From: a virus
IMG/VR virus record: IMGVR_UViG_3300006903_000012
Direction: 5' to 3' (one strand)
DNA: 64,000 nt
In this document: positions 8,042 to 59,814 of the stretch, piece by piece
How the letters are laid out: every line of letters begins with the position of its first letter
How positions within the stretch are numbered: the first letter of the stretch is position 1
The notes under the pieces: model-generated
Seen by the model: the letters and a program-made list of their open reading frames with translations, nothing else
Databases searched by the model: none
Told to the model about the DNA's origin: nothing
Position numbers and translations under genes: made by a program

Positions 8042-8955
8042 CAAGTTCCCATCTATTACTAGATGGCTTAGACTATACCTTCAAAGGCCGCGTATTATCA
8101 AGACAAAATAAAAGTCTCGATCTCGGATTTCTCCTCAGTCGTTACGGGGTCAAACTTTTACAAGTCGACTTCCCTCGGTATTACCCTCGTCTTCAGCGGT
8201 CGGGTTTCACCGATATGAGCGGCGTGCCGGGCCATTTCTTATTTTCCGATAAAGGCCGGAAAGCTAATTTTCTGCTTCCTGCTTCCGATCAATTTCTGCA
8301 TCACTTTCTCATCGAAGCTTTTTATCTTATCAGCTACCTGCCCAATATTTTTTAACTCTTCAGCCCAAAGAATCAGAACCGAAAATCCTTGCTTTTTGAT
8401 ATACTCAATACGCTTCACATCATAGCACCGCATTTTTCCATCTTTCCTATGATGGGTATACCCAAAAACATCGATAACAGCTTTAGCGTCCACTCGACAA
8501 AAATCAGGGCAGAATCTGCCAATCATTAGTCGACCATTCCCAACATACTCATACGGCAGATCCATCAATTTTAGAATATCCCGCACTTGCTGTTCGGGTA
8601 ATGATAACGGACGATTCCACAACGAGCTAGAAAGTCTTTCAGCACCATAAGTCGGATCTGTCTTATACAAAATTCTAGACTTCTTCCTTGCCTTCTTGGC
8701 GGCCTTACTTCTAACATCAGTTGTTAAGTGAGCTAGCCCGGTTTTCTCAAAAAGACCCTGCTTCATTCTTATTGAGTGTTCCTTACCCTGTTTAGCTGTT
8801 TTCTTTTTTCCTTCGGGTGTAGCATGATACAACTTCTTTGACTTTGAAATCTTCTTTGCGACTGCTTCACGTTCCTTTGCTGAACGGTTCTTCCAAAGTC
8901 TTTTTGCAGCTATTGAACATTTAATGCCTTTACTGGTCTTTTGCATATAGAATTA
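8042..8955 (-). mobile_element. group I intron (type 2) in the capsid gene, endonuclease ORF in the P1 loop
   Basis: The 5' splice site is GGGGU|UAAUUC at 8956/8955. The ORF starts 11 nt into the intron. The IGS-like GGCCC follows the ORF stop. The P4/P5 block is cttccctcggtatta..ttcaccgatatgagcgg (8169-8222). R is at 8136-8149 and S at 8069-8086. P9 is CCAUCUAGUAAUAGAUGG. Confidence 0.65.
8239..8946 (-). CDS. intron-encoded homing endonuclease, Vsr/PD-(D/E)XK-like (EDxHD-type)
   Basis: 235 aa. The C-terminus LPYEYVGNGRLMIGRFCPDFCRVDAKAVIDVFGYTHHRKDG..KRIEYIKKQGFSVLILW is paralogous to ORFs 6449, 9290 and 21560. Confidence 0.7.
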   Translation of the reverse strand: MQKTSKGIKCSIAAKRLWKNRSAKEREAVAKKISKSKKLYHATPEGKKKTAKQGKEHSIRMKQGLFEKTGLAHLTTDVRSKAAKKARKKSRILYKTDPTYGAERLSSSLWNRPLSLPEQQVRDILKLMDLPYEYVGNGRLMIGRFCPDFCRVDAKAVIDVFGYTHHRKDGKMRCYDVKRIEYIKKQGFSVLILWAEELKNIGQVADKIKSFDEKVMQKLIGSRKQKISFPAFIGK

Positions 8956-10270: not shown

Positions 10271-10283
10271 ATCTCAGTTGGAT
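10271..10283 (-). CDS. major capsid protein, exon 3 (13-nt microexon; alternative solution 10271..10293)
   Basis: AUCCAACUGAGAU lies between the 3' end of the intron above (..CCGAUUG) and the P1 of the intron below. Two splice-site pairings keep the frame: ..TAQ-Y-PTE-I-LTL.. or ..TAQYP-QPIDPTE-I-LTL.. Confidence 0.35.
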
Positions 10284-10491
10284 CAATCGGTTGCTTTGTT
10301 ATCTATATCTTCACATTCGATATAGGTCAGACTATCTCATCACCCACGTTTGTGGGGCTTCCCTCTTAGTCGTTACACATTGCCCGACTGCAGTTAGCAA
10401 TCTGCTTAGCTCGGTGTTGGCATCACAGCGTTCACCGAATTCGAGAAGTTTTATATCAGTTAATTACTTAACTGTACCCCCAACCGAGGGT
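10284..10491 (-). mobile_element. compact ORF-less group I intron (type 1) in the capsid gene
   Basis: About 200 nt. P1 is CCCAAU|..GUUGGG (alternatively ACCCU|..GGGGU). P2 is CAGUUAAGUAAUUAACUG. The P4/P5 block is gctcggtgttggcatcacagcgttcaccgaattcgag (10409-10445). R is tagtcgttacac (10367-10378), P8 is CCCACAAACGUGGG and S is gtcagactatctc (10326-10345). The 3' tail is GAUAACAAAG. Confidence 0.65.
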
Positions 10492-10532
10492 ATTGGGCCG
10501 TAAAATCGGTTGGCGTCACATACGGTTGTGGA
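10492..10532 (-). CDS. major capsid protein, exon 2 (41-46 nt)
   Basis: (L)PQPYVTPTDFTAQ(Y) begins right after the ..UAACAAAAUG 3' end of the upstream intron. The 3' boundary is 10492 or 10487, depending on which P1 is used. Confidence 0.4.
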
Positions 10533-11021
10533 CATTTTGTTACTTAGGAAGTGATTCTATAAATTCATCTATTGTTGCGAACTCTGTGTAGCGTCCATTG
10601 ATTATATCTTCGTCTACTTTGGCTTCTTTCTGTTGCCATTCCTTTGTCCAAAACCATTGCTGATCTAACAAAGAACTTGCTAACAACAGACTAGTCCAGA
10701 TACTGACAAGTCGTCCGTTTGATTTCCTCAAAGCTATATAATCAAACAAGAAGACCCTTGGAACCTGAAGCAATCGACCAAACCAAGAACGTCGCTTCAA
10801 TGGATAAACCATAACTTATCTCCTAAGGATCAATCATTTCTGTTGATCTCTTACACTTCTAATTTGTGCAAGTTCAGACTATCTCTTCGTCTTGAAAGAC
10901 GCTATCCGTATAGTCGTTACACATTTAGTTAATTGATTAACTTTTAGCTCGGGATTAGCGTCGCAGCCTTCCCCGAATTAGGATAGATCGCATAAATAAA
11001 TCTTATGCCCCTCACTATTGA
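10533..11021 (-). mobile_element. group I intron (type 1) in the capsid gene, with a 90-aa ORF near its 3' end
   Basis: P1 is CCU|UCA-AUAG-UGAGGG with a U.G pair at 11022. P2 is GCAUAAGAUUUAUUUAUGC. The P4/P5 block is agctcgggattagcgtcgcagccttccccgaatta (10944-10980). R is tagtcgttacac (10911-10922) and S is gttcagactatctc (10872-10885). The ORF runs 10812 -> 10540, and the 3' end is GUAACAAAAUG at 10533. Confidence 0.65.
10540..10812 (-). CDS. intron-encoded protein of unknown function (no nuclease motif seen)
   Basis: ATG preceded by AGGAGAUAAGUU. 90 aa, MVYPLKRRSWFGRLL...WTKEWQQKEAKVDEDIINGRYTEFATIDEFIESLPK. It lies between the S element and the predicted 3' splice site. Confidence 0.5.
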   Translation of the reverse strand: MVYPLKRRSWFGRLLQVPRVFLFDYIALRKSNGRLVSIWTSLLLASSLLDQQWFWTKEWQQKEAKVDEDIINGRYTEFATIDEFIESLPK

Positions 11022-11296
11022 AGGATCACCGGATCCGTCGCCTTTGTCACCAACCCGCCATCCAACCCTTTGGATTTCAAAATATGCTCTGTCATAGACT
11101 TCACGAGCAACGGATCAGCTTCGAAACCCTGGGCATTCAAATTCTTCAAAACTTGTTTCGTAATTTCGTCAGCGCCGTATGGATCATTCAGATTCACACC
11201 AGCGCTTTTTGCAAACAGACGAGCCGCATCATTGGCCGACATACCAGCCACCGGCAACACTTGCGGCACCGTCAACATATTATCAAAAGCATCCAT
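11022..11296 (-). CDS. major capsid protein, exon 1
   Basis: ATG at 11296, 20 nt after the scaffold gene stop. MDAFDNMLTVPQVLPVAGMS...GLVTKATDPVI. The track ORF stop at 11015 falls inside the P1 loop of the first intron. Confidence 0.6.
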
Positions 11297-16216: not shown

Positions 16217-19200
16217 GTTTTGTCATCCTCAATTCGTCCTAAAATTTCATAATGTTGCCGACCTACTGGCCGAGCTTGAATTTTTTGCAGCCAATTTTCT
16301 AAGGCTTGATTTGAATTGAACGCCATCACATCTGTTATTTTTGTAACCGGATCGCCAGCGTTATCAACTTCTTCTTTGACACGCACCGTTCGTCCGTCTA
16401 TTTGTAAATTCTTCAGTCGCTTTAATTTCTCAAAATTTCCACGATTGAAGAAATTCAAATCCGGCGGGCGTCCATCATCTGGATCATGTACACCAGAATA
16501 ACCAGTGCCAGTATAGAACGCTTTCTGCTCTAGCTCAGAATATTTAGAATCATATTCATCCATCCACATTCTCAAAGACAGATGATTAATACTATTAACA
16601 TGAACACTTTGATCTGGTAAATCTACATCATCAAAATAAAAATAACCTTTGCCTTTAACAAGTTCTGTTTTCGTCCTGCCCGTAACCTTCAGTGCTCGAT
16701 TAACTTGAGCAACTGTTTTAGGAGTTTTACTGAAATCCATTCCTGATTCTTTTTCCAAATTTCCTGCATGAGTCTTCTGATCGTGTTTGCCAGCTTGGTG
16801 TTTAACTAAAATCTCATACCCATCTTTTTGTAACTGTCGCGCCGCTTGTTTCAACTCACCTTCAACAATAAGACTCTTAACAACTATTGGCAACTCATCA
16901 TCGAAATCATATTTCCCATTATTACTCTTTACGACTGATCGAACTAATGCCGGCATCTCAGGTTTGTAATATTCAAACCCATAATGCAGCACCATGTCTA
17001 AAAAGTCTTCATAGTAACGCTTCAAGTTCTCGTCATTGACCGATTGTAGATCTTCTGTCTTAGCCCGGTCTTTGATAAACTGCTCAAATTCTTTTCGATA
17101 TTGTCCGGGGATTTTTTCAGCATAGCTATCAAATCCCAAAAGTGATTTTTCAGTCTTGGAATTACCAAAAAGATAAAACTCTTTTTCATTTCCCAGATAC
17201 AACCACACCCCAAACACATCCCATGTTACTGCTAATTCTTTCTCAGCCCCCATTGAAGTTAACTGGTTATCTGAAACTGTTACATGGGGTTTATATCCGC
17301 CCGCTTCCCACGTTCGATCTGGTGCCTGCCCATTCGACAACAAACCCGCCACCAAATCATCATGTAGATGTTTTAGGGCGGGTGTGATTTTGACTTCTGC
17401 CACAGACACTTCTTGCAGGGTTATTATAGTGCCGGTCAGGTTGAGTGTCAAGGATTTTTGATCGTATTCAGAACACACTTTTTCGATAGTTTTTCTTATC
17501 GCCAGTGAGTCAAAATACCGATCCATTTTTCCTAAGTAAACTAGTGTGATATGTGGCTCAGACTTTTTGAAATCTAACAGGTTAACTATCTCATTCGGGA
17601 CCGATAGAGCAATCATACAGGTATCATCATGCTCAGCTTTTTCTTCAACTATCTTCGACCCTTTGATTCCCTTAGCTCCAAAAATCTTGGCTCGGCCCGC
17701 TCGGATATCATCTATCGGCAAATCACCTACATCCACCAAAGCCGCTTCAACATACTCATCGGCATCGGTGCCCCATACAATTCCTGCATAAGCATAATTG
17801 CCGCCGAGCACATCTATCTCACTGTCACTAATTACCGGCACCAGACTATATTGTTGTAGATAATGCTGCGCATCGGCTACACTATCAAACCGAGACCGCT
17901 TACCAATTTGATCGGGCTGACCCCATGAATTCATGGGAAGAGATTTTTCTTTAATGGTTGTGCGATATGTTTTGTCGCCTTCTGGATCCTTCCAATCTGA
18001 AACAACCTTAACCTTTGTATTGCCTGGAACACCGAAATACTCAAGTCCACTCAAAGCTGATTTTAGATTCTGATAGGCCCGATCTTCATTATTTCCAGCT
18101 CCCATCTGACCAAAGGCTGAACCGATCCACGGATCACCTCCCTCGGTATCTACTAGAACAAGCCGAACTGCTCGATTAAATGCCGCCTGTGATAACTCGG
18201 CACTATATGCAAGCTCATGGTGACTTGTATCATTCTCAATCTGGCGACCCGCATACCACTTTCCATCTACTTTAATTAATAAAAGATTGAGATGTTTCTT
18301 AATTTCAGACTTTGTCGGGTGCCAGAACTTGTCTCGTTGATAGCTCCCGGGACCAAGCTCTGAGTAATATGACACACTGGGTTTACTAAATTTGTGCTCA
18401 ACCGCAGGTTTACCAATATCTTCTGGCACAGGAGTAGAAGAAAGAGCGCCGGCATGCTTTTTCTGATTATGCTTTCCCGGTTGGTGTTTCTCAACTGCTT
18501 TCTTATTTTCAGCAATAATTCGTTGCGTCTCTTGTTCCAGAATTTCTTTCAGCTTCGCATTCGACTCATCACCGTTCCAATAATGTCCGCCATCTTTCAA
18601 AAAGTCTTCGAATTCTTTTGGGTTCGACTGCAAGTTGCAATGGCAAGTCATGGGATGCGCCGGTGGATGTTGTGTTGTCTCACCGTCGAACACCGTTTCA
18701 TACTCAAAGTCTAAAGGCACAAATCCTTGCTCTTCATTTTGAGTACAAATATCACACACATCGTACCCACGCGTGATCCAACCTTTAGTCTTCAATCCCA
18801 CTGCTGTCATTTGATCTAGAGTCGCCCGAGAATCAGCCCAATTCAATTCCGTATTTACAATTGAACGAATGCGCGACTCACTTAACTTACCAGCATCTTT
18901 CTTAAATTTCAAACCAAAAAGATTCGCCTGGATATAATCGACAATTTCTTCGCTGCTCAAACCATTATCATAACCAGTCAAAATATTTTGCCGAAGGAAA
19001 TATTTTGTTCCACTATCGACATGCTGAACTAATGTGGCTGCTCGTGCATCTAACAGATCAATCACCGACGGATTAGTCAGAATGAACTGAAATTCTTTTG
19101 GTAACGTCAGTCGATCAGCCAAACCCGCTTCAAACATTTGCTGCTGAATATCTTGAACAGCCGTCAGAGAGCCTTCAGAATATGCTTGCCGCAAAATATC

Positions 19201-37906: not shown

Positions 37907-37980
37907 AGCACCAAGCGGGACTCGAACCCACAATCTACAAATTAGAAGTTTGTCGATCTATCCAGTTGATCTATTGGTGC
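37907..37980 (-). tRNA. tRNA-Arg (anticodon UCU)
   Basis: The reverse complement folds as a canonical cloverleaf. Acceptor is GCACCAA/UUGGUGC, D arm is GAUC-AACUGGAUA-GAUC, anticodon arm is ACAAA-CUUCUAA-UUUGU and T arm is GUGGG-UUCGAGU-CCCGC. Confidence 0.9.
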
Positions 37981-45062: not shown

Positions 45063-46094
45063 TTATCCTAATAAATCAACCAACAAAACAGCCGTTTCCA
45101 TAAACTTTTCCAGGTCAGCATCGCTCCCAACAGTAATCCGTATCAGATCACTTAAAGGTAATCCGTGACTGCCCAATGTCCGAATTAGAATTCCTTTCGA
45201 TTCCAAAAACCTAGCGATGGAGAGCGCAGATCGGGGTTTGGTATCATACACCATAAAATTTCCAGCATGTGAAACGAATCTCAAGAAGGGCAGCTTTTCT
45301 TCAATCTGCGCTTCCCATTTGTCCCGCATCTCTAATGTTTCGGAAACAACAACTCTAGAGTGATTCTCCTTGACCGCTTCCTCAGCAAGCAATAGACTCG
45401 GCTCTGAAATCCCCCATGGCAGCCGGAGCTTCTTAAAGATTATAGCTAAAGCCGGATGGCTGATTGTGTAGCCCACACGAATACCCGGAAGCCCATAGGC
45501 TTTAGAAAAAGAATAAATGTAAACCAAGTTTGGATACTTCATCGGATCCAAAAGCGGCCCCGGATTATCTGAAAATTCATAGTAAGCCCGATCTACTGCT
45601 ATCACCCGATCACCATCTAAAAGTTTTTCCAGATCATAGGTATAAGGTAAGGGGTTATTAGGATCACAAAGAAATAACAGTTGATCACCAGCATAGATCT
45701 CATAGGGTAAATCAGATGATTGGTATTCATTTACGGTATAACCATTAAGATCCGCTCGCAGCTTATACATCGAAAACGTAGGAACTACCACGCCCACACT
45801 ATGATATTCTTGAACACAGATCGAGCGAATCAGGACATCTATACATTCGGTCGCGCCCACCATCGCTGTACACATCTCAGGAGCCGATGGGTAAAGTAAA
45901 GACTCCAGATGCTTTGGCGAGCGAGGGTACTCATTATAAGACTGATATAGAACGTCGGCCAGAGAATTATTTTCAACAAATGACTCATTCGCCATCAGAC
46001 GAAGTCCATCAACCTGCTGATGAGATGTATCATAGCTGGTACCTGACACTACCCACTCAGGTAACTCCGATATAATGTCATCAATTCCAGGCAT
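45063..46094 (-). CDS. class I/II PLP-dependent aminotransferase (HisC-like)
   Basis: 343 aa. YSFSKAYGLPGIRVGY contains the PLP-lysine motif SxSK..G..G.R.GY. Overall length fits histidinol-phosphate aminotransferase-like enzymes. Confidence 0.7.
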   Translation of the reverse strand: MPGIDDIISELPEWVVSGTSYDTSHQQVDGLRLMANESFVENNSLADVLYQSYNEYPRSPKHLESLLYPSAPEMCTAMVGATECIDVLIRSICVQEYHSVGVVVPTFSMYKLRADLNGYTVNEYQSSDLPYEIYAGDQLLFLCDPNNPLPYTYDLEKLLDGDRVIAVDRAYYEFSDNPGPLLDPMKYPNLVYIYSFSKAYGLPGIRVGYTISHPALAIIFKKLRLPWGISEPSLLLAEEAVKENHSRVVVSETLEMRDKWEAQIEEKLPFLRFVSHAGNFMVYDTKPRSALSIARFLESKGILIRTLGSHGLPLSDLIRITVGSDADLEKFMETAVLLVDLLG

Positions 46095-46758
46095 CGATGA
46101 TTACTCCTCGCTGAATTAGCTGTTGCTTCCATTCTTGCCGCTTAACACAATGAACACAATGTCCGCATGGTTTATCAGTCAAACTTTCATAGCAGTCATG
46201 CGCATTCCAAATTTCAGGATCCTCAACTAAGCTCCTAGAAAGAATATCGATTCTGTCCCATTCCCACTCCTGAAATGGCGCACTAAATGTAATATCCTCA
46301 CGGGTGGCTTCTTTAGCGGCCAGCATAAATCGTTCATAAAAAGATTCAGTTGCATCAGGAAAGGGGGCATCATCTGGTTCCTTGTGAAACCCGGTCATAA
46401 TCTTAGCGTATCCCAAAGCTAAACCAAAAACCACCGCATGACTCAGTAGAAGTAAATTTCTGGCTTCTAATCTGTTACCTTCTAGAAAAGGCTTCCAACT
46501 TTCACCACTCACTTGGTTTGGATAACTACCCTTTAAAATGGGACTTGTAAGTCGCTTAGATAAATCTGTAATTGGAACGGCATGAAAAGGAATATTATAC
46601 TTTTGGCAAAAATACTTGTTTGATTCGAACTCACCTACAGCTGCCTTCTGTCCATAATCAAACCAGATCACACCGTCTGGTTTCGGGCAGAGAACTAATA
46701 AAGAAATACTATCCATGCCACCGCCGCTCATCAATAAGCTTCTAGTATTCATAGGCAT
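46081..46758 (-). CDS. queC: QueC-family 7-cyano-7-deazaguanine synthase (PP-loop ATPase)
   Basis: Contains LLMSGGGMDSISLL (SGGxDS PP-loop), FDYGQK and a C-terminal CGHCVHCVKR zinc motif, as in QueC. Confidence 0.75.
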   Translation of the reverse strand: MPMNTRSLLMSGGGMDSISLLVLCPKPDGVIWFDYGQKAAVGEFESNKYFCQKYNIPFHAVPITDLSKRLTSPILKGSYPNQVSGESWKPFLEGNRLEARNLLLLSHAVVFGLALGYAKIMTGFHKEPDDAPFPDATESFYERFMLAAKEATREDITFSAPFQEWEWDRIDILSRSLVEDPEIWNAHDCYESLTDKPCGHCVHCVKRQEWKQQLIQRGVIIDAWN

Positions 46759-47032
46759 ACCTTTCCTTTAAAATCTTCAGTAACAAATCGTTGATTTGCT
46801 TCTTCTTGCTTCGATGATGAATATCAAAATGACAATCTCGACAAACACAGGCCATATATTTAGGATCAAAAATTTTTTCAGATCGGACGCGGCCACCACT
46901 CTTTTGTAAAATCTCATGCACCTCCGCACCTGCTGTTCCATGAATCAAGCAGCGTCCATGATCCCGATACCGGACCATTTTGATAATTGTCAGTTTCTCG
47001 GCTTTTGTCAGCTTCTTAACTCGTCTGTCCAT
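46742..47032 (-). CDS. small HNH-type nuclease
   Basis: 96 aa. CLIHG..AEVHEIL..ACVCRDCHFDIHH resembles the HNH beta-beta-alpha-metal finger. Confidence 0.5.
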   Translation of the reverse strand: MDRRVKKLTKAEKLTIIKMVRYRDHGRCLIHGTAGAEVHEILQKSGGRVRSEKIFDPKYMACVCRDCHFDIHHRSKKKQINDLLLKILKERYAYEY

Positions 47033-47639
47033 TTTGATAATAGGCTAAGAACTCTTTCCGAATATCTGAATGCTCAAGAAACAATCCGCTGAGCTTGGCA
47101 GTAACAACCTTACTGTGCCGCATCTTCACACCACGGCAGTTCATACATCCATGCTGACCGACAATAATTACTCCGGCACCGTTAGGCTTCAAATGTTCAT
47201 TAATTGCCTTTGAAATATCCACTGCTAACTGCTCTTGCAAAACTGGTCGTGCCGATAATAACTCAGCCAAACGCGGGATCTTTGATAGCCCAATCACATA
47301 ACCGTCCTTAGATGGGAGATAACCAATTACCATTTGGTAAGTGATAGGCAATAGGTGATGGGGACACAGGCTGGTCGTCTCAATATTCTTGAAGACAACC
47401 ATTTCATCGTAATCACTAGGGAACTTTTTCGACATTAGTTTCTTTATTTGCTTCTCAGTACCCCACATGCCCGAGCACATTTCTATAAGGGACTTAATGA
47501 CTCGCTCCGGTGTCTCTTCAAAGTTAGGATCAGCGTCAACTGTAATTCCCATATCCTGAAGAATTGTCTTCAGATGCAAAGCCATAGCTCCTTGAACTTG
47601 CTTGCTCGGTGGATTGTCAGGAATTGAATCTAATAACAT
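47016..47639 (-). CDS. folE: GTP cyclohydrolase I
   Basis: 207 aa. TSLCPHHLLP and GQHGCMNCRGV match the FolE zinc and catalytic motifs. Confidence 0.8.
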   Translation of the reverse strand: MLLDSIPDNPPSKQVQGAMALHLKTILQDMGITVDADPNFEETPERVIKSLIEMCSGMWGTEKQIKKLMSKKFPSDYDEMVVFKNIETTSLCPHHLLPITYQMVIGYLPSKDGYVIGLSKIPRLAELLSARPVLQEQLAVDISKAINEHLKPNGAGVIIVGQHGCMNCRGVKMRHSKVVTAKLSGLFLEHSDIRKEFLAYYQNGQTS

Positions 47640-48418
47640 CAGCCTAAACCTAACCTTTCTTTTTCCTTAAATAAGAGTTTATCAAGATGTACATTAGAAT
47701 GCTTTCTCAATAATTCAGGAGTAGTCAGAATCTCGAGGAGCAGTGCCATTGCATAAGAATCATATTTGTTATGATCCTTGCCTAGATCTGGCACACCGAA
47801 CTCAGATGTCAAACAATTCCTAACCTGTGTTTTGCTATCTAATCCATCTTTCTTTCTTGTTGATCCTGGACAGATACAAGACTTCCAAGTTGGAATCGGA
47901 ATAACAAGTGTTTGATTAAACTTTGTGTGGTTGTAAATAACATCAAGTACCGCTTGCTTGATTTCCGCCATAGTCTGAACTGCGGAACCATGAGATGCGT
48001 GAGAATAATCCTCGACACAGACAAATAATTGTTTACCAATAATATCTAACGGCAGCTCATCAATTATAAGCCGAAGATGAAGTAACAGGAAATTCAAGTT
48101 TACTGATAACCACTTAACTCGCTCGAATCTGGGTCTCCATCCTTTCTTGCTCTTATCTGGTTTTGATCCAAAGGAAAACCAAGAAACTTTTCGTTCACTG
48201 CCCTTCTTCGAGATTAGGCAGACCGTCAATGGGTTGATCCCCGGATCGATCCCGATGAACACTGTAGAGTTTTTGCCAACCAGGGCTTCGGTAACACATT
48301 TCTCGAAAGTCGCAGTAGTTACAGTGGTCCCCCTCAACCCGGATGAAGAGACCTGCGCGAATACTGTCCGAAACTTTTCGGATTTGATTGATTTGCGTTT
48401 TGATTTCTTGGCGGTCAT
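47639..48418 (-). CDS. RuvC-like Holliday junction resolvase (start uncertain)
   Basis: VFIGIDPGINPLTVCLI is the RuvC/RNase H-like first-strand motif, and later acidic residues are present (VCVEDYS). The track start overlaps the upstream gene by 224 nt, so an internal GTG/TTG start near 48250 is likely. Confidence 0.55.
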   Translation of the reverse strand: MTAKKSKRKSIKSEKFRTVFAQVSSSGLRGTTVTTATFEKCVTEALVGKNSTVFIGIDPGINPLTVCLISKKGSERKVSWFSFGSKPDKSKKGWRPRFERVKWLSVNLNFLLLHLRLIIDELPLDIIGKQLFVCVEDYSHASHGSAVQTMAEIKQAVLDVIYNHTKFNQTLVIPIPTWKSCICPGSTRKKDGLDSKTQVRNCLTSEFGVPDLGKDHNKYDSYAMALLLEILTTPELLRKHSNVHLDKLLFKEKERLGLG

Positions 48419-49100
48419 ATTTTCTTCCTAGAATCTGCACAGTCGGTTCTTTAGTTTTAGTCACCACTACATAAGCTGACAGATCAGCAGCGGTTTTCTT
48501 ACCAATTGATAAAATATCATAAATCTTCAACTGTAAGGCTTTGCTCGGAGTATCCTCAGCATATTTACCTGATGATGTTTTCAGATCAATTCGCAGCAGC
48601 CCACTAAACTGATCTACTTTCTCTCCGATCAGAATCGGTAGTTTCTTAACATCTAAAACCGCATCAATCCGACCCCGAAGTGTAACAAATCCTAAGTCAA
48701 CTTTTTCCTGAATCTCCACTAAACTTTTAGGGAAGTTTATTTTCGACTCAAAAGCCTTGACCAGATTTGCAGACATCTTGCCGCCTTTTTGATACAAAGA
48801 TAACCAGCTATCTCGCTTACCATATTCAATATTTTGGCTATCTTTATATGGTGTCCAAAATTTCTTGAAATTTGGAATAGCCCCAGTCTTCCACAAGTCT
48901 TCCGCAGAGCGATGGATGACCGTCCCAAAAATAAGCGCCGAAGATGTTTTCTTTCTACGAACACCATCAATATGTGATAACCGCCACTGTAACCCACAGG
49001 TCATCCAAGACTTCATTCCACTGGCGGAGATATGCTCTAACTTATAAGTTCCTTTATATTCTCTCTCACTCGGATTTGTCTTGAGTTGTGTCATCATCAC
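48195..49100 (-). CDS. PD-(D/E)XK exonuclease, Cas4/RecB-like
   Basis: 301 aa. A nuclease core (GRIDAVLD, RIDLKTS) and a C-terminal Cys cluster CNYCDFREMC match Cas4/AddB-type nucleases. Confidence 0.65.
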   Translation of the reverse strand: MMMTQLKTNPSEREYKGTYKLEHISASGMKSWMTCGLQWRLSHIDGVRRKKTSSALIFGTVIHRSAEDLWKTGAIPNFKKFWTPYKDSQNIEYGKRDSWLSLYQKGGKMSANLVKAFESKINFPKSLVEIQEKVDLGFVTLRGRIDAVLDVKKLPILIGEKVDQFSGLLRIDLKTSSGKYAEDTPSKALQLKIYDILSIGKKTAADLSAYVVVTKTKEPTVQILGRKYDRQEIKTQINQIRKVSDSIRAGLFIRVEGDHCNYCDFREMCYRSPGWQKLYSVHRDRSGDQPIDGLPNLEEGQ

Positions 49101-50130
49101 TTCCTAAGTCTGATTTTTTGTCTAACATCTCTTGAATTCTGCTCAAGACTAAATCATATACTTTTTTCTTTTTAGTAATAGTTTTATGCGCCTCGCGCCA
49201 GCCATTTCCCAGAGCTGAGTTCTTAATATAAAAAATTGAAGCTCGCTTCTTAATGATTTTTGCTTCAAGAGCTAGGTTGATCAGATCAAGCCGACTGTCT
49301 AAACCGAAACTATATAAGATGGGCACAAATACCTCTCTAAAGGGTGGCCCCACTTTGTTCTTGATTACTTTGATCTTTGATAAGAACCCAACTTGCTTTG
49401 AGCCACCTTTCAAAGTCTGCGCTCGTTTCAGTTCAATCCTGACTGACGCTGTATGCCGCAACATGCGGCCGCCCGGAGTACTGATCTGTGGACCCCAACC
49501 AAAACCACCAATTTTATCTCGAACTTGATTGATAACCAGAACAGCAGTCTTTGTACCTTTTAGATCGGTGTTCAACATTTTACAAAACTTTGTAACGATT
49601 CTGGCTTGCAGCCCAATCTGCATATCAGAAACATCAGCTTCCAACTCTGCCTTAGGAATTAGTGCTGCAATACTATCTAGAACAATCAAATCAACTTTCT
49701 CGCTCAGGATCAATTCTCGAACAATCTCTAATGCCTGCTCAGCCCAGTCAGGTTGTGCAAAAATAAAGCCGGGTTGCTTTTCGTCAATACCACACTGATG
49801 TAAATAATCAGTGTCGAATGAGTTCTCCACATCAACTAAAGCAACGGTTCCACCCGCTCGTTGAACCTCTCGAATAAAATCATAGCTTAGAGTTGTCTTA
49901 CCAGATGATTCAGGACCGAATACTTCTGTTAGACGTCCGCGAGGCAAGCCTCCACGACCCAACGCCCAATTAATAGAAACAGACGAAGATGGGATCACCT
50001 GAATCTCAGGATACGATGATTTATTATTCTCAAATGACCAAACCTGATCGCCAAACTTCTTAATAAGGTCGTTTAGTAAATTCTTGCCTTTAGGCTTCTT
50101 TTCTGCTTTGTTCTTTTTGGACTTCTTCAC
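49066..50130 (-). CDS. RecA-family recombinase
   Basis: 354 aa. Contains the Walker A FGPESSGKTT and Walker B LIVLDSIAAL, and is collinear with RecA. Confidence 0.8.
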   Translation of the reverse strand: MKKSKKNKAEKKPKGKNLLNDLIKKFGDQVWSFENNKSSYPEIQVIPSSSVSINWALGRGGLPRGRLTEVFGPESSGKTTLSYDFIREVQRAGGTVALVDVENSFDTDYLHQCGIDEKQPGFIFAQPDWAEQALEIVRELILSEKVDLIVLDSIAALIPKAELEADVSDMQIGLQARIVTKFCKMLNTDLKGTKTAVLVINQVRDKIGGFGWGPQISTPGGRMLRHTASVRIELKRAQTLKGGSKQVGFLSKIKVIKNKVGPPFREVFVPILYSFGLDSRLDLINLALEAKIIKKRASIFYIKNSALGNGWREAHKTITKKKKVYDLVLSRIQEMLDKKSDLGSDDDTTQDKSE

Positions 50131-50861
50131 TATTTAACCGTCCTTATCTTGGCGGCTGCCAAAATCTCACTGATAGATGCCAAAACTTCAGGATTGGCAG
50201 AATTGATATTCAAAAAGCCAACTTGCTCACGAGTACCATTTACAGTTTGAAATAGATCACCAGTCTCCTGCATAAAAAATACACCACTATTCTTCTGTGC
50301 CTTCGTTGGTGTCATTTTAGAACTTATCTTTTTATCCTTCAATCCTTGCCGTAGTTCAGCAGCAGATAAATTGGTATTGGCTAATATCTTCCACCGGTCT
50401 TTAGTCATCTCCCCTCGCCGGATGTAGCGAGCGGCGGTAGCTAACTTAGGAACTGATGTCTTAAAAATATCTACATCCTTAGGAATATCCTTGACATCTA
50501 GATACTTGCCCGACAAAAAGACTTCCCAATCTAACATATACATATCGGCCATCTGACTGCCCAGATTATAAATTTCTCGAGCATAATCGTAAAATCCAGC
50601 TGAATAGGCTTGAGTAAAAGACTTAGGCAATCCATCCCAGTTTTCTTTGAAATATAAAAGAATCTGACCTAAAGCAAATTTACTAATCTCTTTATTCTTT
50701 GCCCAAGTTGTTCCGATTTTCTGTAGATTCTGCAAACCAGCTAATGATGGTTTCGATCCTAGGTCTTTGATAAGGCTCTGCTGATCAGATGCTAACTTCT
50801 TTATTTCCTGAAGAAAATTCTGTGCAGACACTGGCTTAGTAACTACCTGTTTTGTTGACAT
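50130..50861 (-). CDS. hypothetical protein
   Basis: ATG at 50861 after AAAGGUG, giving 243 aa. Confidence 0.5.
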   Translation of the reverse strand: MSTKQVVTKPVSAQNFLQEIKKLASDQQSLIKDLGSKPSLAGLQNLQKIGTTWAKNKEISKFALGQILLYFKENWDGLPKSFTQAYSAGFYDYAREIYNLGSQMADMYMLDWEVFLSGKYLDVKDIPKDVDIFKTSVPKLATAARYIRRGEMTKDRWKILANTNLSAAELRQGLKDKKISSKMTPTKAQKNSGVFFMQETGDLFQTVNGTREQVGFLNINSANPEVLASISEILAAAKIRTVK

Positions 50862-50869
50862 GCGCACCT

Positions 50870-51493
50870 TTACTCAATAATTCTAGGACCGACAACCGCA
50901 TCCCTAAAATCTAAATCGATTGTCAGAAGATTTTTCAAGTCTTTCAGAATAATTGGCTTCCAATCCGGATTTCTAAATATAGCTGCCGGATGAATGATCG
51001 GATATATCTTCAAACCAAATCTACCCATAAGAACTTTTCCCCGAACGGCAGAAATCTTTTTCTCGGATGGACAAAAGTAAGCCAGTGAAGTGGCTCCGAC
51101 GACAACGACTATTTTGGGTCGTAATGTTTTTAACTGTAACTGTAGGTGGGCACTGCATTGTGCAACCTCACGACCAGTCGGTGGTCGGTTGGCCGGCGGG
51201 CGACACTTAACAATATTAGTAATATAAGTTATATCTTCTGGAAACTTAACCTTCTCTAACAACTCCTGTAGCACTTCACCAGCCCGACCAACAAAGGGTA
51301 GCCCTTGCTCATCTTCATTCTCTCCGGGTGCCTCGCCCACAAACATATAGGTAACATGCGATGTAACTCCCCGACCGACCACCACATTCTGTCGTGTTTT
51401 GTGTAAAGAACATTTCTCGCAAAGCTGCATATACTTAAATGATTTAGGAATAGTACCAATTATCACAATACCCTGGCTCCGTCCTTTGACCAA
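50870..51493 (-). CDS. uracil-DNA glycosylase family 4
   Basis: CEKCSLHK...GEAPGENEDEQGLPFVGRAG and HPAA are family 4 UDG motifs. The track start is TTG and overlaps polA. An ATG at 51430 is an alternative. Confidence 0.75.
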   Translation of the reverse strand: MVKGRSQGIVIIGTIPKSFKYMQLCEKCSLHKTRQNVVVGRGVTSHVTYMFVGEAPGENEDEQGLPFVGRAGEVLQELLEKVKFPEDITYITNIVKCRPPANRPPTGREVAQCSAHLQLQLKTLRPKIVVVVGATSLAYFCPSEKKISAVRGKVLMGRFGLKIYPIIHPAAIFRNPDWKPIILKDLKNLLTIDLDFRDAVVGPRIIE

Positions 51494-53238
51494 TATCTGG
51501 ATGTGTATCCATCAGTTGCAAATGGAACTTTCTTAACTAACATTTGCGCGCTATCCAGCATAGCTTTTTCTAACATAGCATTACAAGCATCCACTCTGTC
51601 TCTTGTCGTCTGCATAATAATCTCATCATGCACAATATTAACTATCTGCCCCAAGTCCGGATGTTTATTGATTCGAATCGTGGCAATTTTAGTCATTTCA
51701 GCCGCACTCCCTTGGATCGGAGTATTACCCGCTTGCCGACTAGATTCTTCTAGCTGCATATCTAAATAGCGGCGACGGCCGATAAGTGTTTCGACATAAC
51801 CATGTTGGGTTGCAAACTCAGCAATGTCATTCATATACTCAGTAACGCGCGGAAAGGTTCTAGCATGTTCAGTCGACAACTCTTTAGCTTCTCTCACTGA
51901 TATTTTCAAACTCTTAGCTAACTTTTTGACACCCATTCGGTAGATCAATCCGAAATTGATATTCTTGGCTGGTTTTCTTCGCGGATCGTCTTTATCAATT
52001 GTATCGTCTTTATATAACTTTCTGGCGACGTGGACATGAATATCTATACCTCTTTCAAAGGCTTCGATCATACCTGGATCACCACTTAATTCCGCTAAAA
52101 TCCGTAATTCTTGCTGCGAATAGTCACGGGCTAATAAAACCAAATCATCATCGGCGCCTGACCAGAAGCAGGCTCGATATTCCTGATACTCTTTAGACTT
52201 GTTTGGAATATTCATCAAGTTTGGTTTATCACCAGCAAAGCGACCCGTACGTGTTTCCACTTGTCGAATCCGCTGATGAACCCTACCTGTAATTGGATTC
52301 ACATGTTCCTTTAGAAAAGCGCGACCATAGGTAGTTGTTAATTTTTGCAGCACCTTATATCTAGCAAACCTTCTCAATAGTGGGTGATCATACTTTTCTA
52401 ATGAGTCGGCCACTGTTTCCTGCTTCAGATCAGGAAGGTCAATACCTAATTTATGCAGCCCATCCAAAATAATGGTTTGGCTGTTCGGATTCTCATCCGA
52501 CAGGCTATCACCGAAAATAGTAATTCTTTTAGTCGTCGTCGGCAGGTCTCGCAATATTTCTTTTCGGACCTGAGCTAATTCCTCTTCTTTTTTCTCAGCT
52601 AAGGCCAACCATCTCTCTGTGTTCAGACTAAATCCGAGAGATTCAATATTAGCTAAGGCCGGAACTAACCGGTGCTCCAAATCTAAAACTCGCGGGAAGT
52701 TTTGGTAACCATTATCTGGTAACTCCTGCATCTTTTGATAAATCTTAGGCAGCACCCAAGCATCCAATGCACCATAACGAACCATTTCATCCGTAACAGC
52801 ATCTCCATTGATAAATCTATCTCGTACATCTTTTTTTAGTTTCAGATTAAGATGCTTTTGTGTCAAACCATCTAATGATAAATCTGGCCGATGGCCACTG
52901 TCATAAACTCCCTCGAATAGAAGTGTGTCAAAAATATTCTTTATTCTAACATCAAATGAGACTAAAAAATGCTTATACTCAAATGATGAATTATGAATAA
53001 CTTTTATAACTCGATCATTTTCTAAAAGTTTGGCTAGCGACCGAAAGTTGTCACGAAGTACAAAAACATCATCATCCACACACACTTGAGCCAAAACTAC
53101 TCGATGAAGTCGGGGATCTGGTGGTACATTTTTGCGACCATCCTTTAGAAATCTCCTTTTGGGGCTAGTCTCAATGTCTAAACCGATCAAACCCGATTTT
53201 GGTATTTTGGCAGCATCATCTATTAAATGAATTTGCAT
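51463..53238 (-). CDS. polA: family A DNA polymerase with 3'-5' exonuclease domain
   Basis: 591 aa. Contains motif A DYSQQELRILA, motif B KNINFGLIYRMG and motif C VHDEII, plus an N-terminal exo motif (GLDIETS). Confidence 0.9.
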   Translation of the reverse strand: MQIHLIDDAAKIPKSGLIGLDIETSPKRRFLKDGRKNVPPDPRLHRVVLAQVCVDDDVFVLRDNFRSLAKLLENDRVIKVIHNSSFEYKHFLVSFDVRIKNIFDTLLFEGVYDSGHRPDLSLDGLTQKHLNLKLKKDVRDRFINGDAVTDEMVRYGALDAWVLPKIYQKMQELPDNGYQNFPRVLDLEHRLVPALANIESLGFSLNTERWLALAEKKEEELAQVRKEILRDLPTTTKRITIFGDSLSDENPNSQTIILDGLHKLGIDLPDLKQETVADSLEKYDHPLLRRFARYKVLQKLTTTYGRAFLKEHVNPITGRVHQRIRQVETRTGRFAGDKPNLMNIPNKSKEYQEYRACFWSGADDDLVLLARDYSQQELRILAELSGDPGMIEAFERGIDIHVHVARKLYKDDTIDKDDPRRKPAKNINFGLIYRMGVKKLAKSLKISVREAKELSTEHARTFPRVTEYMNDIAEFATQHGYVETLIGRRRYLDMQLEESSRQAGNTPIQGSAAEMTKIATIRINKHPDLGQIVNIVHDEIIMQTTRDRVDACNAMLEKAMLDSAQMLVKKVPFATDGYTSRYWSKDGARVL

Positions 53239-53241
53239 CTT

Positions 53242-54219
53242 TTATCCATCCAGAAATGAACGATGCCGAATAGCATTTGATTCTCTATCAACCGGCTCAT
53301 ATCCCATATTATGCAGGTAGCGAACCGACACTCTATTTCTAGCCTGCCAATCCTTTTTCAGGGTATCGGTATTCGGCAGTTTCTGTTCTTTTAGCCATTT
53401 CGCTAGGTTTTCTTGAATAGTTGGATTCTGCTTTTCCCAATGGTTGCCAGCCATACCCGTCCCAAAATCTATCTGCCCGAAAGGTGTATCACAATAACCG
53501 AAACGGCCACCCGAAACCCATGTAGTCGCATCTGCGGAATCGCAGTCAACATGTTTTAGAAACTCAGGACTGGTTGTTGCCAGAACGTGCACCTTGATAT
53601 TTCTTTGGTGGGCATAATCTATAAACCGCCGATAAAAACTAATGTTGTGCTTGTGGGACTTTGGATTCTCTAAGGCTAAATATTTATATAACCCAGAATC
53701 GCACCATTCCTTCCACTCATCAAAACTACGAGTCCAATGCCAAATCCGAATGATCTTCTTGGGCGATTTCAGATTCTCTAGCATATACTGACACAACTTA
53801 TCGGCTGCCTTCCGACTGGAAAAGATGTCAATGTCCATATCGAATGCCCAATCGACCCAATCATCATAGTAGTTCAAAAACTTTACATATTTTCTAGTGT
53901 ATTCCAGCATTTCCGGAAACCGCTTCAGAACAGAGATACGTGTCTGTTTCATTTCCGGACTGTTACTACTCAAGCCTTTGCCAGGAACTTTGAAGATTCG
54001 ATAAAAGGAAAAGACGCCGCTATCAATAAATAGCTGTTGGGTCGTTTTCTTTAAACTAGCAAACTGCAACTTCAATTTCTCTTTGGGGTTGTCTTTCAAA
54101 TACCAATAGCTGATCAGAATATTCTCGACTCGCTCAGGCAAAAGTATGTCATCTACAAATTTCTTTGTCAGCGATGTCGAAAACACCATTCGATTTTTAC
54201 GTCTCACCTTTTTCGGCAT
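53242..54219 (-). CDS. DpdA-like (TGT-fold) DNA 7-deazaguanine transglycosylase candidate
   Basis: 325 aa. LFIDSGVFSF resembles the catalytic DSG.F strand of the TGT/DpdA family. It lies in the same strand block as folE and queC. The assignment rests on motif and context only. Confidence 0.45.
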   Translation of the reverse strand: MPKKVRRKNRMVFSTSLTKKFVDDILLPERVENILISYWYLKDNPKEKLKLQFASLKKTTQQLFIDSGVFSFYRIFKVPGKGLSSNSPEMKQTRISVLKRFPEMLEYTRKYVKFLNYYDDWVDWAFDMDIDIFSSRKAADKLCQYMLENLKSPKKIIRIWHWTRSFDEWKEWCDSGLYKYLALENPKSHKHNISFYRRFIDYAHQRNIKVHVLATTSPEFLKHVDCDSADATTWVSGGRFGYCDTPFGQIDFGTGMAGNHWEKQNPTIQENLAKWLKEQKLPNTDTLKKDWQARNRVSVRYLHNMGYEPVDRESNAIRHRSFLDG

Positions 54220-59082: not shown

Positions 59083-59814
59083 CTAATGCGAACGAATAAA
59101 CTCTGATGGTGACAACCAGCCTTCAGTCACTGGTAAATCTTGATACTTATCTAATTGACACACCGGCCAATAACCGGGGCCAGGTGGGAAGTTTTTATGT
59201 CGGCGCCCACAAGCCGCTTGCTCACCATTGATATAATCCTTTAGATAAAAAGACCGGATCTCAAAATGCAAATGCGAATTATACATATCACCCGGCCACA
59301 TACAAACTTGACCCAATGGTTGTCCTAACTCAACTATCTGACCAGCTGCAACAACTAGTCGATCCAAATGACTATACACTGAAAAGACATTCTTGTGGCC
59401 GACAATAAGCACACCGCAGGGATAATTGACCATTTCAGCATACATCACTTGCCCATCAGCCACTGATAGAATTAACTGGTTAACTGTAACCAACCAATAA
59501 CCGAAATCCGCATCCCATGTGTTTGGCTTAATCATCCAATCTTCACCGGCATGAAACCCGCCATCCGATCGACTATAGATTTGAAAGTTTTGATATATAA
59601 ACCACTGCCCAGGATGCTTGAATGGATAAGAAAAATGTTCTTCTATTGGCGATAAGACAAACTCTTTAGGAGTCACAACAGTCGATATGATTTCTTCCGA
59701 TTTGCCAAATCCTAACCCTTTTTCACTGACACTGTTATCCATTGTATGATGAGTTACTGGTGAGCCAAAAAGAAGACCATAACAAAAGAGACAAAATAAA
59801 TGTCTGAGTTTCAT
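59083..59814 (-). CDS. M23 (LytM-type) metallopeptidase with signal peptide
   Basis: Contains GFHAGEDW (HxxxD) and SHLHFEIRS (HxH). The N-terminal hydrophobic leader is LFCLFCYGLLFG. Confidence 0.75.
   Translation of the reverse strand: MKLRHLFCLFCYGLLFGSPVTHHTMDNSVSEKGLGFGKSEEIISTVVTPKEFVLSPIEEHFSYPFKHPGQWFIYQNFQIYSRSDGGFHAGEDWMIKPNTWDADFGYWLVTVNQLILSVADGQVMYAEMVNYPCGVLIVGHKNVFSVYSHLDRLVVAAGQIVELGQPLGQVCMWPGDMYNSHLHFEIRSFYLKDYINGEQAACGRRHKNFPPGPGYWPVCQLDKYQDLPVTEGWLSPSEFIRSH

What the first reader, a model, noticed from the sequence alone, without database searches (positions are those of the whole stretch)
45063..54219. 7-Deazaguanine DNA-modification genes combined with a PLP aminotransferase but no QueD/QueE/QueF in the window
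FolE (47016..47639) and QueC (46081..46758) are clear. A TGT-fold DpdA-like candidate (53242..54219, LFIDSGVFSF) sits just downstream of polA. This combination is the hallmark of phages that replace dG by preQ0-derived bases to evade restriction. Immediately downstream of queC, and overlapping it by 14 nt, is a HisC-like PLP aminotransferase (45063..46094). A small HNH protein is wedged between folE and queC. I recognise no QueD, QueE, QueF, Gat-QueC amidotransferase, methyltransferase or formyltransferase here. An aminotransferase is not part of the described routes to dPreQ0, dPreQ1, dG+, dADG or their methyl/formyl derivatives. It might therefore install or build a different side chain, such as an aminated or amino-acid-derived 7-substituent, or give an alternative route to an aminomethyl group. 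This is speculative, and the missing genes may lie outside the window or be host-supplied.
Basis: partly seen in the sequence, partly recalled or inferred. Interest (0 to 1): 0.65.

Follow-up and report, generated by a model that had tools for sequence, protein, structure and literature searches.

The report
Phage deazaguanine genes with aminotransferase partner
An uncultured phage carries a complete gene set for swapping guanine in its DNA for a 7-deazaguanine base, plus a vitamin-B6 aminotransferase coupled to one pathway gene; four other phage lineages show a similar pairing, which no published pathway explains and which may mean an undescribed DNA base.

Summary
FolE, QueC, a HisC/CobD-like PLP enzyme, a small HNH protein and a TGT-fold DpdA lie at the stated coordinates, all on the minus strand. 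QueD and QueE are not missing from the phage. They sit 2.6-4 kb beyond the window's right edge on the same 111.5-kb contig. No QueF was found in the 82.7 kb I could read.

The new result concerns the aminotransferase, which is probably not a stray gene. The two closest QueC relatives (42-48% identity) are each followed by an overlapping aminotransferase gene and then DpdA. A syntenic relative and an IMG/VR contig have an aminotransferase directly upstream of QueC. Those four enzymes are class III (PF00202). The window has an unrelated class I/II HisC-like fold at the same position. That is replacement by a non-homologous enzyme at a conserved position. Eleven more distant phage QueC clusters have no aminotransferase. 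None of 79 viral HisC-like loci has a deazaguanine gene nearby.

Four papers checked on these pathways and on the QueC family mention no such enzyme. The chemistry is unresolved. My best guess is that the enzyme makes or processes an amine for the C7 substituent. I rate this a new variant of a known system.

The parts
53242..54219 (-). DpdA-family DNA guanine transglycosylase (TGT fold). It lies between the sliding-clamp gene and polA.
   Evidence: phrog_887 at 1e-21. AF2 model with pLDDT 80.5. The top PDB matches are TGT 7ovo_C and 2z1w at E about 1.5e-4. BFVD phage DpdA matches reach E 7e-14 with TM 0.6-0.7. D66 of the DSGVF motif, D227 and D230 are invariant among 6 relatives.
47016..47639 (-). 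FolE, GTP cyclohydrolase I. This is the first step from GTP.
   Evidence: PF01227 at 7e-49. NF006826 scores 169.5 bits against a 162 cutoff. phrog_2197 at 1e-52.
46742..47032 (-). Small HNH protein overlapping folE and queC by 17 nt each. It is conserved directly after folE in related phages. It is probably a packaging-associated HNH and not part of the base pathway.
   Evidence: phrog_119 and phrog_740. Homologs at 42-53% identity follow FolE in L003/4, L005 and L008. In L005 and L008 the HNH gene lies a few genes upstream of the terminase genes.
46081..46758 (-). QueC, a phage-type 7-cyano-7-deazaguanine synthase-like PP-loop ATPase.
   Evidence: PF06508 at 3e-24. TIGR00364 scores 71 bits, below the 150.3 cutoff. 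Positions Y35, R100, F133 and Y190 and the Zn motif C(x)8CxxCxxC are retained. The His of YxQxHxxE and the Cys of YPDC are absent, as in other phage QueCs.
45063..46094 (-). HisC/CobD-like fold-type I PLP enzyme, translationally coupled to queC.
   Evidence: PF00155 at 4e-22. TIGR01141 scores 160 bits, below its cutoff. The best matches among solved structures are all HisC. K198, D168, Y171, N147, R206, R305 and R319 are conserved, but the GSDE aspartate is replaced by Thr. It is an orphan: the best non-self homolog is 34% identical.
46081..46109 (-). The queC/aminotransferase junction. A GAGGAG ribosome-binding site (46104-46109) lies inside the 3' end of queC. The aminotransferase ATG is at 46094, and the two genes overlap by 14 nt up to the queC stop at 46081-46083.
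   Evidence: Read directly from the sequence.

Best explanation
The window holds the core of a complete phage system that replaces guanine in phage DNA with a 7-deazaguanine base after replication.

The pathway:
- FolE (in the window), QueD and QueE (2.6-4 kb beyond the right edge) convert GTP to 7-carboxy-7-deazaguanine (CDG).
- The phage-type QueC activates the C7 carboxylate with ATP.
- The TGT-fold DpdA exchanges G in DNA for the finished base.

The HisC-like PLP enzyme is a dedicated partner of QueC and not a housekeeping HisC. It is co-translated with QueC, and it occupies the position that class III aminotransferases hold in four other phage lineages.

Most likely mechanism (inferred, not shown): a glutamate-dependent transamination makes or processes the amine that ends up on the C7 substituent. 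One version is that the enzyme supplies an amine nucleophile, which QueC joins to CDG or to the nitrile. This would parallel the QueC-family ligases Cap9 and QatC, and the glutaminase module of Gat-QueC. The other version is that it interconverts a 7-formyl and a 7-aminomethyl group. In either case the base in virion DNA would differ from plain dPreQ0.

What is shown: gene identities, pathway completeness, translational coupling, and the recurrent QueC-aminotransferase linkage. What is inferred: that the linkage is functional, and the chemistry.
For: Pathway identity and completeness.

Coupling in the window: the genes overlap by 14 nt, with a ribosome-binding site inside queC.

Recurrence of the pairing:
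- L009: FolE, QueC, class III AT (8-nt overlap), DpdA (1-nt overlap).
- L010: QueC, class III AT (20-nt overlap), DUF7220, DpdA.
- L003/L004: a syntenic relative of the window phage, with FolE, HNH, two small ORFs, class III AT, QueC.
- L025: class III AT, a 12-nt gap, then QueC-like.

Presence and absence together: related phages L005-7 and L008 lack both QueC and an aminotransferase at this position.

Specificity controls:
- 11 distinct, more distant phage QueC clusters have no aminotransferase.
- 0 of 79 viral HisC-like loci has a deazaguanine gene within 5 kb.
- Aminotransferase-like matches are rare in deposited phages: 62 and 17 of 50,697 records, mostly housekeeping genes in large or unannotated records.

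The enzyme looks catalytically competent, but the Asp that is invariant in the seven bacterial HisC sequences aligned is changed to Thr, and it scores far below the HisC and CobD cutoffs.

Precedent for QueC-family enzymes using amine nucleophiles: PMC13329287.
Against: - No experiment supports it, and the phage is uncultured.
- An aminotransferase cannot act on CDG, ADG or preQ0 directly, and no reductase or other enzyme that would provide a carbonyl substrate was found.
- The QueC motif deviations are shared with phage QueCs that have no aminotransferase, so they do not indicate a changed QueC reaction.
- The closest metagenomic homologs of the class III enzymes (45-60% identity) are not next to QueC. 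They sit in sugar-type clusters with an FGGY kinase, SIS proteins and an M20 peptidase, so that subfamily is not dedicated to deazaguanine chemistry.
- The DpdA proteins of the window lineage and of L009/L010 show no BLAST-level similarity, although both match phrog_887. This argues against a specially adapted transglycosylase.
- About 29 kb of the contig is unread.
- The HisC-like and QueC pairing itself has been seen only once.
Confidence: 0.6

Rival explanations
1. The aminotransferase is a passenger auxiliary metabolic gene, for example one that boosts histidine, aromatic amino acid or general nitrogen metabolism. It happens to sit in a variable region between the HNH gene and the terminase genes. 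The DNA carries plain dPreQ0, or dADG.
For: The gene lies in a region that varies among relatives. It is an orphan whose nearest homologs are bacterial HisC at no more than 34% identity. All HisC catalytic residues are retained. Homologs of the class III enzymes occur without QueC in bacteria. FolE, QueD, QueE, QueC and DpdA are enough to make dPreQ0, as in the published phage systems (PMC6884629).
Against: An aminotransferase is adjacent to or overlapping QueC in five lineages, with two unrelated folds, and twice lies between QueC and DpdA. Aminotransferases are rare in phages. 0 of 79 viral HisC-like genes and 0 of 11 distant QueC clusters show the pairing. QueC and the aminotransferase are present together or absent together.
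Confidence: 0.22
2. The aminotransferase replaces QueF. It converts a 7-formyl-7-deazaguanine intermediate into preQ1 (7-aminomethyl), so the DNA carries dPreQ1 without a nitrile reductase.
For: No QueF motif occurs in the 82.7 kb read. HisC-type and class III enzymes both aminate carbonyls that lack an alpha-carboxylate, and class III enzymes aminate aryl aldehydes (my own knowledge). preQ1 is the only pathway compound with a primary amine.
Against: No enzyme able to make the aldehyde from CDG or preQ0 was found. The QueF motif was also absent from all control loci, so its absence tells us nothing. 29 kb of the contig is unread, and a host QueF could exist.
Confidence: 0.1
3. The aminotransferase belongs to the phage's large sugar and glycan gene set and aminates a keto-sugar. 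Its position next to queC is incidental.
For: The phage carries many glycosyltransferase, epimerase/dehydratase and methyltransferase genes. L025 has glycosyltransferases beside QueC. Bacterial homologs of the class III enzyme sit with sugar kinase and SIS genes.
Against: The gene is about 43 kb from the sugar cluster and overlaps queC. L009 and L010 show no sugar genes around the QueC, AT, DpdA block. Sugar aminotransferases are normally of the DegT type and not HisC-like (my own knowledge).
Confidence: 0.05

Closest known systems
Phage dPreQ0 systems (DpdA plus FolE/QueD/QueE/QueC, e.g. Escherichia phage CAjan; PMC6884629)
   Same: It has the same five enzyme families, the same logic (GTP to CDG to a preQ0-type base, inserted after replication by a TGT-fold DpdA), and the same presumed anti-restriction role.
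   Different: An extra PLP aminotransferase is translationally coupled to QueC. DpdA matches no Pfam or NCBIfam model and only phrog_887. The genes are split into three places among the replisome genes.
Gat-QueC / dG+ system of Enterobacteria phage 9g (PMC6884629)
   Same: A QueC-type module is paired with a second, nitrogen-handling module. The best PHROG match of the window QueC is a 418-position profile (phrog_1550) of which QueC matches only positions 143-345, so that family may include longer or fused proteins (my reading).
   Different: The partner here is a separate PLP aminotransferase and not a fused class II glutaminase. An aminotransferase does not release ammonia, so the chemistry cannot be the same.
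Cap9 / QatC deazaguanylation ligases (PMC13329287, PMC13279940)
   Same: They are QueC-family enzymes that adenylate CDG and join it to an amine other than ammonia. Like Cap9, the window QueC has the Y-x-Q-(x)5-E spacing and keeps only the RN of VPxRN.
   Different: Those are bacterial defence proteins that modify a protein N-terminus. Here the context is phage DNA modification with DpdA. The same motif variants occur in phage QueCs that have no aminotransferase.
dPreQ1-derived modifications (mdPreQ1, fdPreQ1) with DpdM / DpdN, and dDG with DpdL (PMC10516641)
   Same: These are accessory enzymes added to the core pathway that diversify the C7 substituent in phage DNA.
   Different: None of them is a PLP enzyme. 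No QueF, DpdL, DpdM or DpdN was recognised here.
Streptomyces 7-deazapurine gene clusters with a PF00202 aminotransferase (bioRxiv 10.64898/2026.04.15.718813)
   Same: A preQ0 core is combined with a class III aminotransferase, and the product is uncharacterised.
   Different: Those are bacterial secondary-metabolite clusters with dioxygenase, FAA hydrolase and methyltransferase genes. They have no DpdA and do not target DNA.

Membership tests
Phage 7-deazaguanine DNA modification system | A DpdA transglycosylase with a TGT-type fold | tested here: met
   phrog_887 at 1e-21. The AF2 model's top PDB matches are TGT. Phage DpdA models match in BFVD at E 7e-14.
Phage 7-deazaguanine DNA modification system | A complete preQ0 pathway: FolE, QueD, QueE and QueC | tested here: met
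   FolE and QueC are in the window. QueD (PF01242 at 6e-31) and QueE (phrog_2076 at 5e-33; TIGR03365 at 172 bits) are on the same contig, 2.6-4 kb outside the window.
Phage 7-deazaguanine DNA modification system | A 7-deazaguanine base present in virion DNA | not testable with these tools
   The phage is uncultured. This needs LC-MS/MS.
DpdA subfamilies DpdA1-4 and bDpdA | Clusters with a named subfamily | not tested
   No reference sequences of the subfamilies were compared. The closest cultured-phage hit is a hypothetical protein of Bacteroides phage BS162P1, 28% identical.
Canonical QueC (Cluster 1 of PF06508, PMC13329287) | The curated equivalog score (TIGR00364) | tested here: not met
   71 bits against a 150.3 cutoff. 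The Pfam gathering score is met (86 against 22).
Canonical QueC (Cluster 1 of PF06508, PMC13329287) | The motifs SGGxDS, YxQxHxxE, VPxRN, YPDC and C(x)8CxxCxxC | tested here: not met
   The window has GGGMDS, YGQKAAVGE (no His), LEARN (RN only) and FPDA (no Cys). The Zn motif is intact. The same variants occur in other phage QueCs.
Canonical QueC (Cluster 1 of PF06508, PMC13329287) | The experimentally essential residues Y35, R99, Y131 and Y189 | tested here: met
   The window has Y35, R100, F133 (the Y131F mutant keeps partial activity) and Y190.
HisC, histidinol-phosphate aminotransferase | The curated equivalog score (TIGR01141) | tested here: not met
   160 bits against a 276.55 cutoff.
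HisC, histidinol-phosphate aminotransferase | The PLP lysine and the cofactor- and substrate-binding residues | tested here: met
   K198, D168, Y171, N147, R206, R305, R319, Y56 and Y110 are conserved.
HisC, histidinol-phosphate aminotransferase | The conserved Asp of the G(S/A)DE motif. From memory, this residue contacts the imidazole of the substrate. | tested here: not met
   The window has GATE where all 7 aligned bacterial HisC sequences have Asp.
CobD, threonine-phosphate decarboxylase | The curated equivalog score (TIGR01140) | tested here: not met
   125.6 bits against a 290.55 cutoff.
Gat-QueC | A glutamine amidotransferase domain fused to QueC | tested here: not met
   QueC is 225 aa and matches only the QueC part of the profiles.
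QueF-dependent dPreQ1 system | QueF is encoded by the phage | tested here: inconclusive
   No QueF motif occurs in 82.7 of 111.5 kb. The motif also found nothing in the control loci.
QueC-aminotransferase module (proposed here) | An aminotransferase gene adjacent to or overlapping a phage queC within a FolE/DpdA context | tested here: met
   Found in the window, L009, L010, L003/4 and L025. Absent from 11 distinct, more distant phage QueC loci.

The most novel reading that the evidence does not exclude
A set of uncultured phages makes a 7-deazaguanine DNA base that is not among the eight described. Its C7 side chain needs a PLP-dependent transamination coupled to QueC. Candidates are an N-substituted carboxamide or amidine, or an aminomethyl group made without QueF. 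The step has been filled at least twice by unrelated aminotransferase folds.
Probability: 0.4. Interest if true: 0.8.

Novelty: new variant of a known kind. Interest (0 to 1): 0.62.

Why it matters
Phage 7-deazaguanine modifications block restriction enzymes, and in vitro Cas9. They are also targets of newly found defence systems. Eight derivatives are known, and each accessory enzyme discovered so far (Gat-QueC, QueF, DpdL, DpdM, DpdN) has revealed new chemistry.

A conserved aminotransferase partner of QueC predicts either a further base or a previously unrecognised requirement of the QueC step. The prediction can be tested directly by expressing six genes in E. coli.

The work also gives a rule for mining. 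A PF00202 or PF00155 gene next to a phage PF06508 gene should flag candidate genomes.

Tried and rejected
- Close DNA relatives among 50,697 deposited phages: none.
- Single-sequence searches of IMG/VR for the aminotransferase, DpdA and QueC: none. The DpdA-alignment scan also found nothing.
- I considered whether the QueC motif changes (no His in YxQxHxxE, no Cys in YPDC, Cap9-like spacing) mark a changed reaction. I rejected this because phage QueCs without an aminotransferase share them.
- I considered three independent recruitments of aminotransferases. I reduced this to at least two folds, because the placement of the L004 enzyme is unresolved, at 48 of 100 bootstraps.
- I expected the class III subfamily to be dedicated to QueC. 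This was refuted: the closest metagenomic homologs lie in sugar-type bacterial clusters.
- Using a QueF motif to contrast loci with and without an aminotransferase was uninformative, because there were no hits anywhere.
- The annotation of the closest cultured-phage DpdA relative (Bacteroides phage BS162P1) consists almost entirely of hypothetical proteins.
- The literature searches found no paper linking a PLP enzyme to phage deazaguanine pathways.
- I could not read contig positions 1-6370 and 89066-111505.
Full report
**What is there.** The window is phage DNA with essentially all genes on the minus strand. Reading in the direction of transcription, the region contains:
- clamp loader, sliding clamp, DpdA-like (53242-54219), PolA, a family-4-type UDG, a 245-aa protein, RecA and a PD-(D/E)XK exonuclease
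- RuvC-like, FolE (47016-47639), HNH (46742-47032), QueC (46081-46758) and the HisC-like PLP enzyme (45063-46094)
- two small unknown ORFs, a 204-aa protein that precedes TerL in relatives, and TerL

From RuvC to the PLP enzyme, each gene overlaps the next: by 1 nt, then 17, 17 and 14 nt. At the queC/aminotransferase junction, a GAGGAG lies 9 nt upstream of the aminotransferase ATG, inside the end of queC.

**Identity of the parts.**
- FolE is unambiguous (PF01227 at 7e-49, and it passes an NCBIfam FolE cutoff).
- QueC matches PF06508 (3e-24) but scores only 71 bits against the 150.3-bit equivalog cutoff.
- DpdA has no Pfam, NCBIfam or PDB sequence match. It matches phrog_887 at 1e-21.
- An AlphaFold2 model of DpdA, built on six homologs, has pLDDT 80.5 and pTM 0.82. 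Its two best PDB matches are tRNA-guanine transglycosylases, aligned over about 350 columns. Many phage 'queuine tRNA-ribosyltransferase' models in BFVD match at E down to 7e-14 with TM 0.6-0.7.
- The PLP enzyme belongs to the HisC/CobD subfamily of fold-type I. It scores 160 bits on TIGR01141 and 125.6 on TIGR01140, both far below their cutoffs. All its best solved-structure matches are HisC.

**The 'missing' genes.** The window comes from a 111,505-bp contig, Logan SRR5585387_261051. DNA fetched beyond the right edge holds two adjacent genes:
- QueD (L001:5225-5734; PF01242 at 6e-31; phrog_2389)
- QueE (L001:5739-6632; phrog_2076 at 5e-33; TIGR03365 at 172 bits)

These correspond to window-equivalent positions of about 66.6-68.0 kb. 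The phage therefore encodes the standard route from GTP to CDG and QueC. In the 82.7 kb I could stitch together, each of these genes is single-copy. No QueF signature motif is present. About 29 kb of the contig remained out of reach.

**Is the aminotransferase linked to the pathway?**

The enzyme is an orphan.
- In 5.8 billion proteins, the only close hit is itself. The next best are bacterial HisC at no more than 34% identity.
- No deposited phage has an ortholog.
- IMG/VR holds no relative by single-sequence search.

Relatives of its neighbours are informative.
- The two closest QueC relatives (48% and 42% identity) lie on phage contigs. There, queC is followed by an overlapping class III aminotransferase gene (PF00202) and then a DpdA-family gene.
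  - L009: FolE, QueC, AT (8-nt overlap), DpdA (1-nt overlap), clamp, PolA.
  - L010: exonuclease, QueC, AT (20-nt overlap), DUF7220, DpdA.
- A phage syntenic with the window phage across the whole replication module (L003/L004) has RuvC, FolE, HNH, two small ORFs, class III AT, QueC.
- A 128-kb IMG/VR contig (L025) has a class III AT followed 12 nt later by a QueC-type gene (phrog_1550 at 8e-21). A QueD-like gene lies 5 kb away.
- Two other syntenic lineages (L005-7 and L008) go from FolE and HNH to the terminase genes. They lack both QueC and an aminotransferase at that position.

QueC and an aminotransferase therefore come and go together. The window phage has an unrelated aminotransferase fold at the position held by class III enzymes elsewhere.

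**Controls.**
- Eleven distinct, more distant phage QueC loci from IMG/VR (14 retrieved, 21-35% identity) carry various combinations of QueE, QueD, FolE and DpdA around QueC. None has an aminotransferase.
- Of 79 IMG/VR loci with HisC-like genes, none has QueC, DpdA, FolE, QueD or QueE within 5 kb.
- Aminotransferase-like matches are rare in deposited phage records. There are 62 and 17 of 50,697. Those listed are at most 32% identical and are mostly housekeeping genes in large or unannotated records.

Chance adjacency in five lineages is therefore very unlikely.

**Cautions.**
- The three class III enzymes of L009, L010 and L025 form a well-supported clade (98 of 100 NJ bootstraps). The placement of the L004 enzyme is unresolved (48 of 100). 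I therefore claim only that two unrelated folds were recruited.
- The closest metagenomic homologs of the class III enzymes (45-60% identity) are not next to QueC. Several sit in bacterial clusters with an ECF/ABC transporter, an FGGY kinase, SIS-domain proteins and an M20 peptidase. The subfamily was probably captured from sugar or amino-sugar metabolism and is not in itself a deazaguanine enzyme.
- The window QueC deviates from the canonical signature defined in PMC13329287. It has no His in YxQxHxxE, only RN of VPxRN, and FPDA in place of YPDC. Phage QueCs without an aminotransferase share these deviations. All four experimentally essential positions are kept (Y35, R100, F133, Y190). The motifs therefore do not reveal a changed QueC reaction.
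- The AT-linked QueCs of the window, L009, L010 and L004 share an insertion of about 7 residues just before the RN loop. A 2-residue insertion after the PF motif is seen in the three that are complete. L025 lacks both. Their meaning is unknown.

**The enzyme itself.** Against E. coli HisC and six bacterial homologs, the phage protein keeps the following:
- the PLP lysine (K198)
- D168, Y171, N147, R206, Y56 and Y110
- both C-terminal arginines (R305, R319)

It should therefore be an active transaminase-type PLP enzyme. It replaces the Asp that is invariant among these seven sequences in the G(S/A)DE motif with Thr. From memory, that residue contacts the imidazole ring in HisC. Together with the sub-threshold family scores and the non-his context, this argues against a housekeeping histidinol-phosphate aminotransferase.

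**Mechanism.**

The following parts are shown or rest on well-established family functions:
- FolE, QueD and QueE make CDG from GTP.
- QueC activates the C7 carboxylate.
- DpdA exchanges G in DNA for the base.

The role of the PLP enzyme is inferred. An aminotransferase cannot act on CDG, ADG or preQ0. The link to QueC is most simply through the nitrogen-bearing group. There are three possibilities:
- (a) The enzyme makes an amine that QueC joins to CDG or adds to the nitrile. QueC-family enzymes Cap9 and QatC already use non-ammonia amines (PMC13329287). Gat-QueC shows that a QueC module can work with a separate nitrogen-donor module (PMC6884629).
- (b) The enzyme interconverts 7-formyl-7-deazaguanine and preQ1. 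HisC-type and class III enzymes both act on carbonyls and amines that lack an alpha-carboxylate, which fits either option.
- (c) The enzyme merely supports QueC metabolically, and the DNA carries dPreQ0.

I put about 0.6 on a functional coupling to QueC and about 0.4 on a base outside the eight described. None of the chemistry is tested.

**Literature.** The two key surveys of phage 7-deazaguanine pathways (PMC6884629 and PMC10516641) and the 2026 QueC-family survey (PMC13329287) mention no PLP enzyme or transaminase. In PMC6884629 the word 'aminotransferase' appears once, in a figure legend, for the enzymes that make G+ from preQ0. No paper in the library combines deazaguanine, transaminase, phage and DNA modification. 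A 2026 preprint notes uncharacterised Streptomyces deazapurine clusters that contain PF00202.

**Verdict.** The 'missing' genes are simply outside the window, but comparative data support the aminotransferase as a real partner of the pathway. I rate this a new variant of a known kind of system. It is worth an experiment.

Noticed in passing
window 206-1949 and beyond the left edge (L002:10001-21422): There is a large sugar and glycan gene set, continuing for at least 10 kb past the window. It has at least five glycosyltransferases, three NAD-dependent epimerase/dehydratase genes and two methyltransferases. Its target (virion, host surface or DNA) is unknown.
   Followed up: partly
window 46742-47032; L004:13007-13405; L005:17022-17330; L008:~17042-17320: The small HNH protein is conserved directly after folE in all four related lineages (42-53% identity). 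In relatives that lack QueC and the aminotransferase, it sits a few genes upstream of the terminase genes. This suggests a packaging-associated HNH, with QueC and the aminotransferase as an insert between it and the terminase.
   Followed up: partly
L003:6378-7385 and 10001-11062: The syntenic relative carries two DpdA paralogs (42% and 37% identical to the window DpdA, both phrog_887). The window phage has one.
   Followed up: partly
L003:12771-14402; L008:18672-21041: There are inteins in relatives. The UDG of L003/L004 is interrupted by intein and LAGLIDADG domains. The TerL of L008 is split into three matching segments, with a faint HINT-domain hit. The window's UDG and TerL are uninterrupted.
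   Followed up: no
window 6449-7303 and 8239-8946: Two DUF559 (PF04480) endonuclease-like genes lie among small ORFs near the left end of the window. They may be mobile nuclease genes.
   Followed up: no
L001:4697-5203 (outside the window, just upstream of queD): A 168-aa protein matches phrog_335 ('phosphatase'). By eye its sequence looks macro-domain-like. It lies adjacent to queD and queE.
   Followed up: no
L037:1845-10261; also L030, L033, L035, L036: Bacterial homologs of the phage class III aminotransferase (45-55% identity) sit in a recurring cluster. In L037 it comprises an ABC/ECF transporter, an FGGY kinase, the aminotransferase, a double-SIS protein, an M20 peptidase and another SIS protein. 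This looks like an uncharacterised amino-sugar or Amadori-type catabolic pathway.
   Followed up: partly
window 37907-37980 (-): A single tRNA-Arg(TCT) gene.
   Followed up: no
window 59083-59814: An M23 peptidase gene lies inside the replication module, between the DnaB helicase gene and the primase region.
   Followed up: no
QueC alignment: window residues ~86-94 and ~164-165: The AT-linked QueCs of the window, L009, L010 and L004 share an insertion of about 7 residues before the RN loop. A 2-residue insertion after the PF motif is seen in the three complete sequences. Both are absent from E. coli QueC, from phage QueCs without an aminotransferase, and from L025.
   Followed up: no
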